A model generated the notes under the pieces. It was not told the origin of the DNA. It saw only the letters and a program-made list of their open reading frames with translations, and searched no databases. Below are positions 1,793-54,269 of a stretch of 64,000 bases of DNA, in pieces (position 1 is the first letter of the stretch; every line of letters starts with the position of its first letter). Where the stretch lies: NCBI RefSeq assembly GCF_035084215.1, contig NC_090353.1, positions 10,230,001 through 10,294,000 of the forward strand, written 5' to 3'. This DNA is from Heptranchias perlo. Lineage: Eukaryota. A program made the translations under genes and the position numbers.

Positions 1793-1949
1793 AATCAGCT
1801 TTCAGTATTTCAATGAGATTTGGTGCAGCCCAAACCAGCCGCCCCTCGTGGGCGTAAAACTGACAAACACCTGGGGTCCCAGCAGGAACTGGGCACCGTT
1901 ATTTTAAGGAGAGGGACTGTCCAGAACAGAGTGAAACCTCTCGATCTGT
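1793..1949 (+). promoter_or_regulatory. Conserved V-upstream element, cluster A copy (degenerate CTCF-like motif)
   Basis: 156/157 identity to 19246-19402; homologous in inverted form to 52096-52730, where the motif is consensus CTCF. Confidence 0.5.
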
Positions 1950-2070
1950 GTTTTATAACAACATTACACAAATATTTTGGTTTCCGTTCCTTCAGACATG
2001 TTCCTTTAAGTAACTGTCTGACACCTCACTGTTTAAAGGGACACTGACTCCAGTTCTGTGGGGAGTCACG

Positions 2071-2237
2071 GGGGTCAATTTAACTTTGGGCGATGATGTA
2101 AAACGGACGATATCGAGTTAGTCGCCATTACACAACCTGCCTGAGGTTCCATTCCATTGAAGTCATAGGAAGGGGAAATCGGGCGAGGTGCATAAAGGGC
2201 ATTCAATTCGATTTTGCCCAAAGTTAAAATGATCTCC
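2071..2237. mobile_element. Palindromic MITE (GGGGTCAATTTTAACTTTGGGCGA termini)
   Basis: Terminal inverted repeats ggggtcaattttaactttgggc / gcccaaagttaaaatgatctcc; same family at 50393-51298. Confidence 0.7.
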
Positions 2238-2279
2238 TATGTGATTTTATTCTTTGGTCCAATTTTCTCTCCCTCTCTG

Positions 2280-2610
2280 GAAGCTGTGATTCATGCTGGT
2301 GGGGCTGTCAGCATCAATCACTCACCCTGCCCTAGTGACCATTCTTCATGTGGGAACCTAGACCGTAAGTGGAGACAGACAATTGTATCGTAGACAAACA
2401 ACTGACCCAATCCTGTCCTCATCTCACACCCAGTAATCAGGGTGACTGATGGTGACCAGGAGAGTGGGAAACCTGGCTGATTTTTGACTTGTAGCCCAGG
2501 AGCACTGATGGTAAGTGTAAATCTCATTGCATTGCCCAGGGAAAATCAGCTATCTAATCCCGGAGTAGGAACCAGCCCTTGGACCTGCCCAGTCTATAAG
2601 TCCCAATTCA
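2280..2610 (-). mobile_element. Old tRNA-derived SINE-like repeat (related copies at ~14560-15200, 49760-50390, 59030-59400)
   Basis: Shared degenerate motifs among copies (ccctggctgatttt, atcagctaac, gaaccagg); family name not established. Confidence 0.4.
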
Positions 2611-2964
2611 TTGTATTGTGCATAGACTCCGCCATTAGACTCCTTCCATCGTGGGTGTGCAAATAACTGGTATCTGAGGTCAATGTCATCCCTCCACATT
2701 GTGACACCTCTGGTGCCCACATCAGCTCTCATTGCAGAATCTATGCAGTTTTATGCTGTAGGTTCACACCCTCTCGGAGATGATTATCAATCAACTGTTG
2801 ACTCTTTACTTTATTTTCTTCATCCAGCAAGAGGCAACTTGTCCTAAAACACTAAGGTGCCAGGCAGGCCTACGGACAGCCCAATTTGAAATTGGAGGCC
2901 TTTGGAGGACAGGGAACTAATGTAGGTCAGCAGGAGCAGGGACGATTGGTGAATGAGACCTGGT

Positions 2965-3590
2965 CCGAGAGCGGGAGGAGAGTCCAAGAGGTGAGCGCAG
3001 TATAAAAGGAGAGTCTGAGAGCGAGAGGAGAGTCCGAGAGGTGAGCGCAGTATAAAAGGAGAGTCTGAGAGTGAGAGGAGAGTCCGAGAGGTGAGCGCAG
3101 TATAAAAGGAGAGTCTGAGAGTGAGAGGAGAGTCCGAGAGGTGAGCGCAGTGTAAAAGGAGAGTCTGAGAGGTGAGCGCAGTGTAAAAGGAGAGTCCAAG
3201 AGCTGAGCGCAGTGTAAAAGGAGAGTCCGAGAGCGGGAGGAGAGTCCAAGAGGTGAGCGCAGTATAAAAGGAGAGTCTGAGAGTGGGAGGAGAGTCTGAG
3301 AGGTGAGCACAGTGTAAAAGGAGAGACTGAGAGTGGGAGGAGAGTCCGAGAGGTGAGCACAGTGTAAAAGGAGAGTCCGAGAGCGGGAGGAGAGTCCGAG
3401 AGCGGGAGGAGAGTCCGAGAGGTGAGCACAGTGTAAAAGGAGAGACGGAGAGCGGGAGGAGAGTCCGAGAGGTGAGCACAGTGTAAAAGGAGAGTCCGAG
3501 AGCGGGAGGAGAGTCCGAGAGGTGAGCGCAGTGCAAAAGTAGAAACCGAGAGCGGGAGGAGAGTCCGAGAGGTGAGCGCAGTGTAAATCT
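2965..3590 (+). repeat. Compound purine-rich minisatellite forming the 5' UTR of a CR1 element
   Basis: Alternating units gagagtccgagaggtgagcgcagt(a/g)taaaag and gagagtccgagagcgggag, running directly into CR1 ORF1. Confidence 0.85.
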
Positions 3591-51298: not shown

Positions 51299-51559
51299 CC
51301 CCAACGTGTGGAAAGCCTGTTGACACTCACCTGTTCACAGATAGAAAATGGTCATTTGGGTGAGGTTCGGGGGAGGCGTTGGTCCTGGTGATCACGTCCC
51401 AGCAGAAATCGACATCTTCAGGGAACAACGGATGCACGGAGGCTTTTGTCTTTGATTATTGGTCTGTGACCTCGGAAGACCATTATGCATTGTCTGCCGC
51501 TCATGGATGCAGGTGGTGACCGCCGAGCATCACATAATATAAATGAGGCTGGTTTAATG

Positions 51560-52092
51560 AAATAGTGCTCCCACTGTTATAGGAAGGATATAAAAGCAAT
51601 GGAAAAGGTGCAGTGTAGATTCACTAAACTTACCAGGGATGTGGGGTTACAGGTATGTGAGAGAGAGAGAGAGAGACACACACAGACAGACTTTAGTAGT
51701 TAGGACCTTTTTTTCCCTCCAATGGAGCTAAAAAGGTTAAAGGGTAACCTGATCGAGGCCGTCAAGATTAATGAAGGATTATGATCAGGTTAGAATTTTC
51801 TCACTGGTCAGTAATGAGAGGGCACAAATTTAAGGTAATCATCAAAAGAATGAAACAGGAGGTTAGAAAAAAATGTATTTATACAGAGGTTGATTAGAGT
51901 GTGGAATTCTCAGCCACAAACTGTTATTAAGGCAGAATCCACAAATGCTTTTAAAAGGGCATTAGATAGTTGCTTGTAAAAAGGAACATTAAAGGGTATG
52001 AGGAGCAAGAAGAGTGGGATTAGACTCTGTGGCTCATGTGCAGACTTGATGGGCCAAATGGTCTGTTTCATTGCTGTAACATTCTATGATTT
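51560..52092 (+). mobile_element. Old CR1 3' fragment
   Basis: CR1 3' UTR motifs and attctatgat tail. Confidence 0.7.
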
Positions 52093-52095
52093 GTG

Positions 52096-52646
52096 TAGAG
52101 ATCGCGAGGGTTTCACTCTGCTCTGGACAGTCCCCCTCCTTAAAATAGAGATCGCGAGGGTCTCACTCTGCTCTGGACAGTCCCCCTCCTTAAAATAGAG
52201 ATCGCGAGGGTCTCACTCCGCTCTGGACAGTCCCCCTCCTTAAAATAGAGATCGCGAGGGTCTCACTCTGCTCTGGACAGTCCCCCTCCTTAAAATAGAG
52301 ATCGCGAGGGTTTCACTCTGCTCTGGACAGTCCCCCTCCTTAAAATAGAGATCGCGAGGGTCTCACTCCGCTCTGGACAGTCCCCCTCCTTAAAATAGAG
52401 ATCGCGAGGGTCTCACTCTGCTCTGGACAGTCCCCCTCCTTAAAATAGAGATCGCGAGGGTCTCACTCTGCTCTGGACAGTCCCCCTCCTTAAAATAGAG
52501 ATCGCGAGGGTCTCACTCTGCTCTGGACAGTCCCCCTCCTTAAAATAGAGATCGCGAGGGTCTCACTCTGCTCTGGACAGTCCCCCTCCTTAAAATAGAG
52601 ATCGCGAGGGTCTCACTCCGCTCTGGACAGTCCCCCTCCTTAAAAT
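52096..52646 (+). repeat. 50-bp minisatellite, 11 copies (tagagatcgcgagggt[c/t]tcactc[t/c]gctctggacagtccccctccttaaaa)
   Basis: Period 50 (atcgcgaggg at 52101, 52151 ... 52601); the unit is the reverse complement of part of the IgL V-upstream element. Confidence 0.97.
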
Positions 52647-52676
52647 AAGTGCCCAGTTCCTGCTGGTGTCAGTTTA

Positions 52677-52708
52677 CTGCCCCCTGGTGGCAGCTGGTTT
52701 GGGCTGCA
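52677..52708 (-). promoter_or_regulatory. Consensus CTCF motif with upstream TGCAG module
   Basis: Minus strand TGCAGcccaaaccagcTGCCACCAGGGGGCAG. Confidence 0.65.
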
Positions 52709-54269
52709 CCAAAACCTCATTCAAATTCTGTAAGGTACCAACTGAGGACTGATTAATTCACCCAATCCACTTGAATCAAAATTTAAATTAGGTGTAATTG
52801 CCTTTCAGGGTCCTGATTCTATGAAAACCACAGGTACTCAGATAATAGATTGGATTCAGGAGTTAGTGGATCATTGTTAGTTTTAATAGTAAGCTGCTGG
52901 TTTTTGGTTAGTTAGTATACAACATCAAGTAGTAGCTAGCAAGTTAGTGGGCAAGAAAGAAACTTACATTTATATAGCACCTCACACAAACTCAGGATGT
53001 CCCAAAGCACTTTACCGCCAATGAAGTACTTTTGAAGTGTAGTCACCGTTGTAATGTAGGGAAACAGGGCCATTTGTGCACAGCAAGATCCCACAAACAG
53101 TAATGAGATAAATAACCTAATCATCTGTTTTAGTAATGTTGGTTGAGGGATAATTATTGTCCCAGGACACTGGGGAGAACTCTCCTGCTCTTCAAACAGT
53201 GCCATGGGATCTTTTACATTAAGGATTCTTACATACACAGTGGAGACAAACAATTCTACCAGCTAAACTTATGGAGAGTTTCACCAGTTCCTGCAGGATG
53301 TTTCTTAAATAGTGCATTTGATGCCTGTCAGAGGGAAATTATTCCCAGCACATTTTAGTCATTAATTGATTAATGATAGTTAGTAGCTGGTAATTAGCAG
53401 CCAACAAGTTAGTAGTTACTAGATACTGGTTAGAACAGAGCTGCGTTATAATAAAGGCAGCTGGTTTACATGATTGAATGAGTTACATTAAGTTTACACA
53501 ACATGGCACTCCAGGACTTTTATTGGTGTTTTGGGATCACAATCCACGATGATATTGCAACTAAAAGTTACTACTTAGTGATTCTCATGGAAAAATAACA
53601 TTTTCAATATAAAAATGAAAACTGTGGCAAAATTAAATTGGTGCAAGGGGCAAATGTAAAGAAGCTCACAGAATATTCCAGATTCCAACAGTAAAACACG
53701 CTCACAGAGACCCAGACGCAAATAGTCCATGAGAAGAATTGTAATTTCACCAACAAGTACGAAAGTTAGAATTCAATTTCTATTGAAGCCCAAAAACTGA
53801 AACGAGGCCTACATTCAAAATAAAGAGACACGGTTAAAATTAATAAAATTAAAATCATTCCTCAGACTAACCCAACAGTGGTCTGTAATCCACAGCTTTT
53901 GGAAATTGAAACAAGACAAATTTAGTCTCATTCAAGCCCCAGGTTATTATCTCTCAAACTTTCTTGTGTCCTCATGAGTTGTGTGGGGAGTGAAACATGA
54001 TGTGGATATTTTTTGTGAAACATGGAAACATGGAAAGAATTCCTGAAAGGACAAAAACATGGATAACAAAATATATTTTCGACTTAAACATTTTCCGAGA
54101 CCATGACTAGAATCTGAGATCAAAAAATCCAGATAAAAATTAAATTTCTTCTGAAGACAATAAATAAAATGACTAAAATTTAAGATGGAGATGAGAATAA
54201 AGGGACAATTGTCCATGCTCGTACTGCTGGTGGATGGGTAGTCTCACCCACTGGCCGCACATGTCCAGG

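What the first reader, a model, noticed from the sequence alone, without database searches (positions are those of the whole stretch)
1793..52730. Candidate CTCF-based insulation architecture for cluster-type Ig genes: one element upstream of each V plus a convergent copy beyond RPL37
Seen: a 157-bp island (1793-1949 and 19246-19402; one mismatch, 1848/19301) sits upstream of both V promoters inside more diverged flanks. A third, inverted homologue lies at ~52096-52950, with no V, leader or octamer found next to it. In that copy the aligned position reads TGCAG-N11-TGCCACCAGGGGGCAG, a consensus CTCF core with the upstream module. The two IgL copies keep the TGCAG module and a degenerate core (CGCCCCTC[G/A]TGGGCGT). 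The IgL copies point right and the third points left, i.e. convergent around RPL37. Known: convergent CTCF sites anchor loops, CTCF elements (IGCR1, Cer/Sis) restrain RAG scanning in mammals, and shark clusters rearrange within a cluster. Inference: each cluster may carry its own boundary that blocks inter-cluster V-J joining and separates the Ig genes from the strong housekeeping RPL37 promoter.
Basis: partly seen in the sequence, partly recalled or inferred. Interest (0 to 1): 0.8.

Follow-up and report, generated by a model that had tools for sequence, protein, structure and literature searches.

The report
Shark antibody-gene element with decayed CTCF site
A short regulatory-looking element occurs three times near shark antibody light-chain genes, but only the copy far from the genes has a convincing binding site for the insulator protein CTCF, so the idea that each gene cluster has its own insulator is weakly supported.

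Summary
A 157-bp island (1793-1949 = 19246-19402, one mismatch at 1848/19301) lies upstream of two tandem Ig sigma light-chain V promoters of a hexanchiform-like shark. An inverted third copy beyond RPL37 holds the best CTCF site in the window (24 bits, with upstream module). The interpretation mostly fails. At the aligned position the two Ig-side copies score 1.3 and -6.4 bits (matrix recalled from memory). The core is the least conserved part of the island (9/16 and 8/16 identical to copy 3, against 90% around it), and the only copy1/copy2 difference destroys an invariant core G. The aligned motif points out of its cluster, opposite to the V-side sites of mouse Ig-lambda. The near-identity is best explained by patchy gene conversion: the leader intron is 107/107 identical, and in other sharks sigma C domains are homogenised while V lineages are ancient. 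Best reading: an old, locally duplicated module; copy 3 is a real boundary-type site; the Ig-side cores have decayed; V-J proximity (369 bp against about 19 kb) keeps joining inside a cluster. Open lead: copy 1 has a weak inward-pointing match (6.6 bits). Genome-wide copy number is unchecked.

The parts
1793..1949 (+). Island, copy 1 (upstream of cluster-1 V promoter); upstream module retained, CTCF core degenerate
1839..1857 (+). Copy 1, position aligned to the CTCF core: 1.3 bits, points away from its cluster
   Evidence: matrix recalled
1836..1854 (-). Copy 1, weak opposite-strand CTCF-like match (6.6 bits, p 1.8e-4), points into its cluster, register shifted by 1 bp, no upstream module
1555..2073 (+). 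Whole homologous block, copy 1; ends at an inserted element with 22-bp inverted ends (2070-2237)
19246..19402 (+). Island, copy 2 (upstream of cluster-2 V promoter); aligned core -6.4 bits, opposite strand 0.8 bits
19019..19518 (+). Whole homologous block, copy 2
52591..52948 (-). Copy 3, inverted, 5 kb upstream of the RPL37 start
52675..52708 (-). Strong two-part CTCF site (upstream module plus core), points towards RPL37 and the Ig clusters
52096..52647 (-). 11 x 50-bp tandem amplification of the island's 3' end, 98% matches
53356..53436 (-). Further weak homology to copy-1 left flank, cut off from copy 3 by a dispersed repeat at 52968-53220
1..415 (-). Cluster 1: start of V exon (1-11), intron (12-116), leader exon (117-165), octamer (277-284); 98.8% identical to 18595-19010
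18595..19010 (-). Cluster 2 leader exon (18711-18759), intron (18606-18710), octamer (18871-18878)
18251..18605 (-). Cluster 2 V exon (Ig sigma) with 12-bp-spacer RSS at 18278-18251
17860..17935 (-). Cluster 2 J with 23-bp-spacer RSS (heptamer at 17903-17897, degenerate nonamer), 369 bp from the V RSS
14021..14343 (-). Cluster 2 C exon (Ig sigma)
36070..47400 (-). RPL37 gene: ATG near 47358 in a CpG island, exons near 45100, 43360 and 36170; identified by recalled peptide motifs, not by a database search

Best explanation
An old regulatory module of roughly 500 bp, built around a two-part CTCF site, was duplicated locally in inverted orientation. One copy (copy 3, beyond RPL37) kept a near-perfect CTCF site and most likely binds CTCF as an ordinary boundary or loop anchor facing RPL37 and the Ig sigma array (motif shown; binding inferred). 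The other copy came to lie upstream of a sigma V promoter and was multiplied with the V-J-C cluster. There the CTCF core decayed while the sequence on both sides of it stayed constrained, probably as a V-upstream enhancer-like element (decay shown as divergence; direction of change and enhancer role inferred). Patchy gene conversion between the neighbouring clusters made the 157-bp island and the 415-bp promoter-leader-intron block nearly identical (pattern shown; mechanism inferred). Joining stays inside a cluster mainly because V and J are 369 bp apart, against about 19 kb to the next cluster's V, not because of a per-cluster insulator (inferred).
For: Copy 3 scores 24.2 bits, rank 1; the Ig-side copies score 1.3 and -6.4, and the gap holds for pseudocounts 1-90 (forward 1.3-5.4 and -6.3-0.1 against 22.9-24.2). 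With a recalled IUPAC consensus and up to 2 mismatches copy 3 matches with 0 mismatches and the Ig-side copies are not among the 17 hits. Core identity to copy 3 is 9/16 and 8/16, against 110/122 and 111/122 in the rest of the island and 142/205 and 153/210 in the left flank. Seven random changes in the copy-3 core bring the forward score to 1.4 or less in 77% of 20,000 trials. The one copy1/copy2 difference is a G-to-A change in a CpG at a near-invariant core position. Zuo et al. (PMC10287918, passages): the strongest upstream site cannot localise CTCF to a defective core. Conversion: a 107-nt stretch that is 104 nt intron is 107/107 identical between clusters while flanks are 81-87%. In four other shark species paired sigma genes are 71-78% identical in V but 95-98% in C; one V lineage forms a cross-species clade (99/96) that the C data reject (AU p 3.9e-8). 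Non-core island is better conserved against copy 3 than the flank (p 1e-5 and 6e-5). The Ig-side copies carry a 13-bp insertion with an E-box.
Against: The matrix was recalled, not retrieved. With the unweighted published consensus CCNNNAGGGGGCGC both Ig-side copies match on the minus strand with 2 mismatches, the same count as copy 3 (9 hits, 11.4 expected). Copy 1's opposite-strand score (6.6; 8.4-10.0 at pseudocounts 30-90) is reached in only 1.5-3% of simulated decays that lose the forward site. 5-23% of CTCF peaks in mouse antigen-receptor loci match no motif, and V-side Ig-lambda sites are B-lineage-specific (PMC5859386). Motif prediction alone did not accurately predict Hox CTCF sites (PMC5504073). 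Cer, which points away from J, alone kept nearly wild-type joining patterns (PMC11153149), so orientation is not decisive. Three copies cannot polarise the core change. AU groups were named after seeing the tree; 1 of 3 V species-pair tests was not rejected (p 0.10); most proteins are predicted gene models. No direct evidence for enhancer activity. Genome-wide copy number untested.
Confidence: 0.55

Rival explanations
1. The block is a piece of an old dispersed repeat that carries a CTCF site. One insertion landed upstream of the ancestral sigma V and was copied with the cluster, another beyond RPL37. It has no special link to Ig clusters.
For: About half of the window is repeat (30,514 of 64,000 bp masked by self-BLAST). 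Copy 3 has no Ig remnant nearby. Repeat-borne CTCF sites are known in mammals and lamprey (PMC5504073). A weak internal inverted repeat lies in the left part (1 and 0 of 300 shuffles in copies 1 and 2).
Against: No terminal inverted repeats shared between the copies and no flanking direct repeats stood out. No tRNA or Rfam match. Only 3 copies, two of them positionally paralogous. Conservation is uneven, 90% in the island and about 70% in the flank.
Confidence: 0.2
2. Orientation flip: the core is nearly palindromic, and in the Ig lineage it was re-read one base shifted on the other strand. This gives a weak, possibly B-cell-specific or methylation-gated CTCF site that points into the cluster, as in mouse Ig-lambda, and impedes RAG scanning past V.
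For: In the shifted opposite-strand register the score is 6.6 in copy 1 against -2.7 in copy 3. Probability under random decay 0.015-0.03 (post hoc). Both Ig-side copies tie with copy 3 on the unweighted consensus. Mouse Ig-lambda clusters have V-side sites convergent with a downstream site (PMC5859386). The sigma clusters here are only 18.6 kb apart, much closer than the 120 to >200 kb given for nurse shark IgM clusters (PMC5192425), so a barrier would be useful.
Against: 6.6 bits is below the score threshold of 8 used in the skate study and p 1.8e-4 misses the 1e-4 threshold of the lamprey study (scales not strictly comparable). Copy 2 has only 0.8 bits. Two near-invariant core positions mismatch. 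The upstream module would be on the wrong side. The only right-pointing candidate partner of 8 bits or more to the left of C2 is 858-876 (14.3 bits), at a repeat junction.
Confidence: 0.12
3. One reading: all three copies bind CTCF in the aligned orientation, form loops around RPL37, shield V promoters from RPL37 and block inter-cluster V-J joining.
For: Geometry is convergent around RPL37 (33.4 kb). The upstream module and its spacing are kept in all three copies. The aligned position in copy 1 is still in the top 0.2% of window positions. Cores of intermediate strength gain most from an upstream site (PMC10287918).
Against: Three or four heavily penalised core changes; the core is the least conserved part; the sole difference between the copies hits the core. 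Outward orientation does not face the J centre, unlike Sis as drawn in PMC11153149 (PMC5859386 gives one Sis site in each orientation). A copy2-copy3 loop would bring the V2 promoter near the RPL37 promoter region in space (inference).
Confidence: 0.08
4. Protocadherin-like choice: tandem weak forward sites at each V promoter loop in turn to the single strong reverse site at the end of the array and help pick one cluster at a time (the protocadherin arrangement is recalled, not looked up).
For: Tandem same-orientation elements at each V and one strong opposite site at the array end. Igh and TCR-beta V-side sites are all in one orientation facing end-of-locus sites (PMC5859386).
Against: Needs binding at the decayed forward cores. 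No evidence that copy 3 is an enhancer. RPL37 lies inside the loop.
Confidence: 0.05

Closest known systems
Mouse Ig-lambda and TCR-gamma cluster-flanking CTCF sites (Loguercio et al. 2018, PMC5859386; passages)
   Same: Cluster-type loci with within-cluster joining; a CTCF site upstream of each V-lambda; a constitutive site outside the cluster.
   Different: There the V-side sites are ChIP-proven and convergent with a site downstream of C. Here the V-side cores are degenerate, the aligned motif points outward, and the strong site lies on the V side beyond another gene.
PAIR elements of mouse Igh (Hill et al. 2023, PMC10390877; passages)
   Same: A repeated module of about 470-500 bp associated with V genes, with a CTCF site and an E2A-type E-box; acts as an enhancer of nearby V recombination.
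   Different: PAIRs have an intact CTCF site, Pax5 and YY1 binding and a lncRNA promoter, in a translocon locus. No sequence comparison was possible and no homology is claimed.
Cer/Sis (Igk) and IGCR1 (Igh) (Zhang et al. 2024, PMC11153149; passages)
   Same: CTCF elements that impede RAG scanning.
   Different: They are pairs of sites between V and (D)J. This element is a single site upstream of V, outside the V-J interval.
Two-part vertebrate CTCF site, core plus upstream motif (PMC10287918, PMC10484683, PMC5504073; passages)
   Same: Copy 3 fits both parts with a spacing in the described range.
   Different: Copies 1 and 2 keep only the upstream part and a damaged core.
Elasmobranch Ig sigma light-chain miniclusters (PMC5192425, PMC12227049; passages)
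   Same: Split V-J-C in one orientation, V-J under 500 bp; C domain 84% and 80% identical to named horn shark and nurse shark sigma chains, 97% to a Heptranchias perlo protein.
   Different: Clusters repeat at only 18.6 kb; their upstream elements were not described in the papers seen.

Membership tests
CTCF binding element (copy 3) | Core motif above usual thresholds | tested here: met
   24.2 bits, p 1.8e-9, rank 1 (matrix recalled); 0 mismatches to recalled IUPAC consensus
CTCF binding element (copy 3) | Upstream motif at the described spacing | tested here: met
   Only match of the two-part pattern in the window, 0.01 expected; exact spacing values recalled, 5-6 nt variants stated in PMC10287918
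CTCF binding element (copies 1 and 2) | Core motif above usual thresholds in the orientation of the upstream motif | tested here: not met
   1.3 and -6.4 bits; absent hits
CTCF binding element (copies 1 and 2) | Core motif on the opposite strand | tested here: inconclusive
   6.6 and 0.8 bits (8.4 and 3.3 at pseudocount 30); 2 mismatches to the unweighted consensus, at chance frequency
CTCF binding element (all copies) | CTCF/cohesin occupancy in vivo | not testable with these tools
   No ChIP data for this locus available
CTCF binding element (copies 1 and 2) | Core conserved more than its surroundings | tested here: not met
   Core 9/16 and 8/16 against 90% in the rest of the island
Cluster-bounding CTCF pair (mouse Ig-lambda type) | V-side site convergent with a site downstream of C | tested here: inconclusive
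   Aligned motif points outward (not met); weak inward match in copy 1 only; sole candidate partner 858-876 at a repeat junction
IGCR1 / Cer-Sis type scanning impediment | Paired CTCF sites between V and (D)J | tested here: not met
   No site of 8 bits or more in the 369-bp V-J interval; element lies upstream of V
PAIR-like V-associated module | Repeat associated with V genes, with intact CTCF site and E2A site | tested here: inconclusive
   Position and E-box met, CTCF core not met
PAIR-like V-associated module | Enhancer activity and lncRNA transcription in early B cells | not testable with these tools
   Needs expression and reporter data
Dispersed transposon-derived repeat | High genome-wide copy number | not testable with these tools
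   No eukaryotic genome collection on hand; 3 copies in 64 kb
Dispersed transposon-derived repeat | Terminal repeats, target duplication, tRNA-derived head | tested here: inconclusive
   None evident, but an old decayed element could have lost them
Ig sigma light-chain cluster | Sequence affinity of C and V to named sigma chains; V-12/J-23 RSS; split V-J | tested here: met

The most novel reading that the evidence does not exclude
The result is a weak, CpG-containing, B-cell-gated site pointing into each cluster. This would be the first cis-element offered for the within-cluster rule of cartilaginous-fish V(D)J joining, and a case of CTCF orientation reversal without DNA inversion.
Probability: 0.12. 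Interest if true: 0.7.

Novelty: new member of a known kind. Interest (0 to 1): 0.3.

Why it matters
Why shark Ig genes rearrange within and not between clusters is usually put down to distance (PMC3014032, PMC5192425; passages). This locus has clusters only 18.6 kb apart and two defined candidate sites, so the question is testable here with EMSA, CUT&Tag and repertoire sequencing. On present evidence it gives one ordinary strong CTCF site, a probable V-upstream regulatory module with a decayed core, and a clear case of patchy gene conversion. It also shows that near-identity between paralogous clusters is not evidence of function.

Tried and rejected
1) Copy 3 as the relic of a third Ig cluster: no V, J, C, leader or promoter homology near it; promoter and right-flank alignments not above shuffles (6 of the 8 flank alignments clearly at chance level, one borderline at 3 of 100, one significant). 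The apparent collinear hit 2070-2154 / 51299-51211 is a dispersed element with inverted ends, also at 50393-50449. 2) Element as a non-coding RNA: no Rfam match at gathering score in the window or at E up to 1 in 19000-19550; folding z-scores +0.13 to -2.0 for 6 stretches; no tRNA. 3) A repeat family spreading CTCF sites in the window: 3 of 18 sites of 8 bits or more fall in a 10-copy diverged repeat, but at different places or strands of it. 4) The three 'aligned' rows were off by one base; one search gives the corrected scores. 5) First protein search with the C domain at near lengths found nothing; the longer-length search gave 55 hits. The PDB search showed only a general Ig C fold. 6) The cluster-member look-up could not be made, so it stays open whether the Heptranchias perlo protein P0003 (leader identical to cluster 1's; V 96%, C 97% to cluster 2) is cluster 1 of this genome or an orthologue. 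7) Genome-wide copy number and conservation in other sharks could not be checked: no eukaryotic DNA collection is offered; the bacterial/archaeal scan was not used. 8) Literature: no paper on CTCF at cartilaginous-fish Ig clusters turned up in searches. The library lacks most subscription journals, where much shark Ig work and shark CTCF ChIP-seq (recalled) are published. No supplements were read.

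
Full report
Setting. The window holds, on the minus strand, the promoter and leader of one Ig light-chain cluster (1-415; its V runs off the left end), a complete second cluster (leader 18711-18759, V to 18280 with a 12-bp-spacer RSS, J at 17860-17896 with a 23-bp-spacer RSS, C 14021-14343) and RPL37 (about 36.1-47.4 kb). 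RPL37 was recognised by recalled peptide motifs. The C domain found 55 relatives; it is 84% and 80% identical to named sigma chains of horn shark and nurse shark and 97% to a Heptranchias perlo protein. The genes are therefore Ig sigma, from a hexanchiform-like shark. The clusters repeat at 18,594 bp; V and J signals are 369 bp apart.

Observation. Every coordinate checks. The island is 156 of 157 identical, flanks 81-87%, and 0 of 20,000 shuffles of mismatch positions gave such a stretch. The third copy is inverted at 52591-52948 (71-72%), with its 3' 50 bp amplified 11 times and a small extension at 53356-53436. A profile of the three copies finds no fourth full copy in the window, and no cluster part has a remnant near copy 3.

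CTCF motif. I scored all 127,964 positions with the JASPAR MA0139.1 matrix as recalled from memory; it comes from no call. Copy 3 scores 24.2 of 27.4 bits and ranks first. It is the only two-part match in the window (0.01 expected, pattern built with the site in view). The aligned positions in copies 1 and 2 score 1.3 and -6.4 bits, ranks 222 and 1718, with three and four heavily penalised changes. A recalled IUPAC consensus with up to 2 mismatches gives 17 hits (13.6 expected), copy 3 with none, copies 1 and 2 absent. Against this reading: the unweighted consensus quoted in PMC10287918 gives 9 hits (11.4 expected) that include copy 3 and, on the minus strand, both Ig-side copies, all with 2 mismatches. 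By matrix that opposite-strand match is 6.6 bits in copy 1 and 0.8 in copy 2, rising to 10.0 and 5.7 at the largest pseudocount tried.

What is conserved. Against copy 3 the 16-bp core is 9/16 and 8/16 identical, the rest of the island 110/122 and 111/122, the left flank 142/205 and 153/210. The core is worse than the rest of the island (Fisher p 0.0016, 0.0002; a scan statistic that does not presume the core gives 0.06 and 0.01) and no better than the flank (p 0.28, 0.08). The single copy1/copy2 difference is a CpG-type G-to-A change at a near-invariant core position. Whatever constrains the island in the Ig-side copies, it is not the forward CTCF core. Seven random changes reduce the copy-3 core to copy 1's forward score or lower in 77% of trials; keeping an opposite-strand score of 6.5 or more after losing the forward site happened in 1.5-3% (post hoc). 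Zuo et al. (PMC10287918, passages) found that the strongest upstream site cannot localise CTCF to a defective core, although intermediate cores gain most from it.

Why copies 1 and 2 are nearly identical. A 107-nt stretch that is 104 nt leader intron is 107/107 identical between the clusters, and leader plus promoter 296 of 300 ungapped columns. Introns do not need such identity, so recent sequence exchange is the simpler cause. Protein trees agree. One search used 53 of the 55 hits (one unnamed and one teleost hit left out; two more dropped from the V tree for short alignments). One V lineage groups four shark species (support 99/96), while C domains group largely by species. On 18 of the 55 hits plus the window, the C data reject that clade (AU p 3.9e-8); V data reject same-species pairing in 2 of 3 tests (p 0.004, 0.0009; 0.10). 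Paired genes are 71-78% identical in V and 95-98% in C in 4 of 4 species. Limits: groups were named after seeing the tree, and most sequences are predicted gene models.

Geometry. The aligned motif points right, away from its own J. RAG scanning from the J of cluster 1 towards V2 would meet copy 1 from behind. [quoted passage not shown] In Igk scanning stops in Sis, drawn as pointing to J, but Cer alone kept nearly normal joining, and the other paper gives Sis one site in each direction (PMC11153149; PMC5859386), so orientation is only a soft argument. Copy 3 lies 5 kb upstream of RPL37 and points towards it; without a bound partner at 19 kb it places RPL37 and the Ig clusters on one side. Inward-pointing sites at domain borders are documented in skate (PMC10115646, passages) and two-part motifs in lamprey (PMC5504073, passages). 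Reviews attribute within-cluster joining to short V-J distance and wide cluster spacing (PMC5192425; PMC3014032; PMC12227049; passages).

Mechanism, with status. Shown: three homologous copies; one strong two-part motif; two damaged ones; a divergence peak at the core; mosaic identity between clusters. Inferred: copy 3 binds CTCF as a boundary; the ancestor was a strong site; conversion homogenised copies 1 and 2; the non-core island is an enhancer-like element (an E-box in a 13-bp insertion and kB-, IRF- and ETS-like words are present, but these are recalled consensus matches without a control); proximity, 369 bp against about 19 kb, restricts joining. Confidence 0.55.

Novelty. CTCF sites upstream of V genes in cluster-type loci are known from mouse Ig-lambda, and V-associated repeated modules with CTCF and E2A sites from PAIR elements (PMC10390877, passages). 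Searches showed no paper on CTCF at cartilaginous-fish Ig clusters, within a library that lacks most subscription journals. Other papers seen: PMC10484683 and PMC5985310 (passages) and bioRxiv 10.64898/2026.04.12.717890 (abstract and outline). No supplements were read. Verdict: a real feature and a new member of a known kind; the insulation model is doubtful; interest 0.3.

Noticed in passing
window 17904-17935 (minus): The J 23-RSS has a good heptamer but a nonamer matching only 5 of 9 letters of the recalled consensus. A weak J signal could itself favour the V 369 bp away over distant ones.
   Followed up: no
P0003-P0056: Shark sigma genes keep two old V lineages across species while C domains are homogenised within species: concerted evolution of C, not V.
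   Followed up: partly
window 46099-46318: 220-bp near-perfect inverted repeat (90%) in RPL37 intron 1; gives a sub-threshold plant miRNA match that reflects only the hairpin.
   Followed up: no
window 52096-52647: Each 50-bp unit next to the strong CTCF site carries a CTCGCGA word (BANP-like core, recalled) and a GGGACTGTCC word (kB-like, recalled); the Ig-side copies lack the first.
   Followed up: no
window 858-876 (+): Third-best CTCF-like site (14.3 bits), between promoter 1 and island 1, at the junction with a LINE-like tail; points towards cluster 2. About 0.6 such sites are expected by chance.
   Followed up: partly
window 1018-1175 and 1176-1256: Local duplications of the distal promoter piece (336-483, 505-545, 966-1002) in cluster 1; cluster 2 lacks this interval, which explains 1516 bp against 375 bp spacing.
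   Followed up: no
window 1731-1817 and 19184-19272: Imperfect 31-bp inverted repeat with CCAAT words straddling the island's left edge; no unusual folding energy.
   Followed up: yes
window 35500-53500: No snoRNA match in RPL37 introns at E up to 0.5, although the human gene is recalled to host one.
   Followed up: partly
window 2963-3587, 15723-16013, 43669-43856: Further tandem arrays (50-bp mixed, 38 bp x 7.8 in the J-C intron, 24 bp x 7.8 in an RPL37 intron).
   Followed up: no
window 58235-58686 / 62980-63431 and 58711-58901 / 59626-59816: Two young inverted duplications (94% and 98%) right of copy 3, showing that local inverted duplication happens in this region.
   Followed up: no
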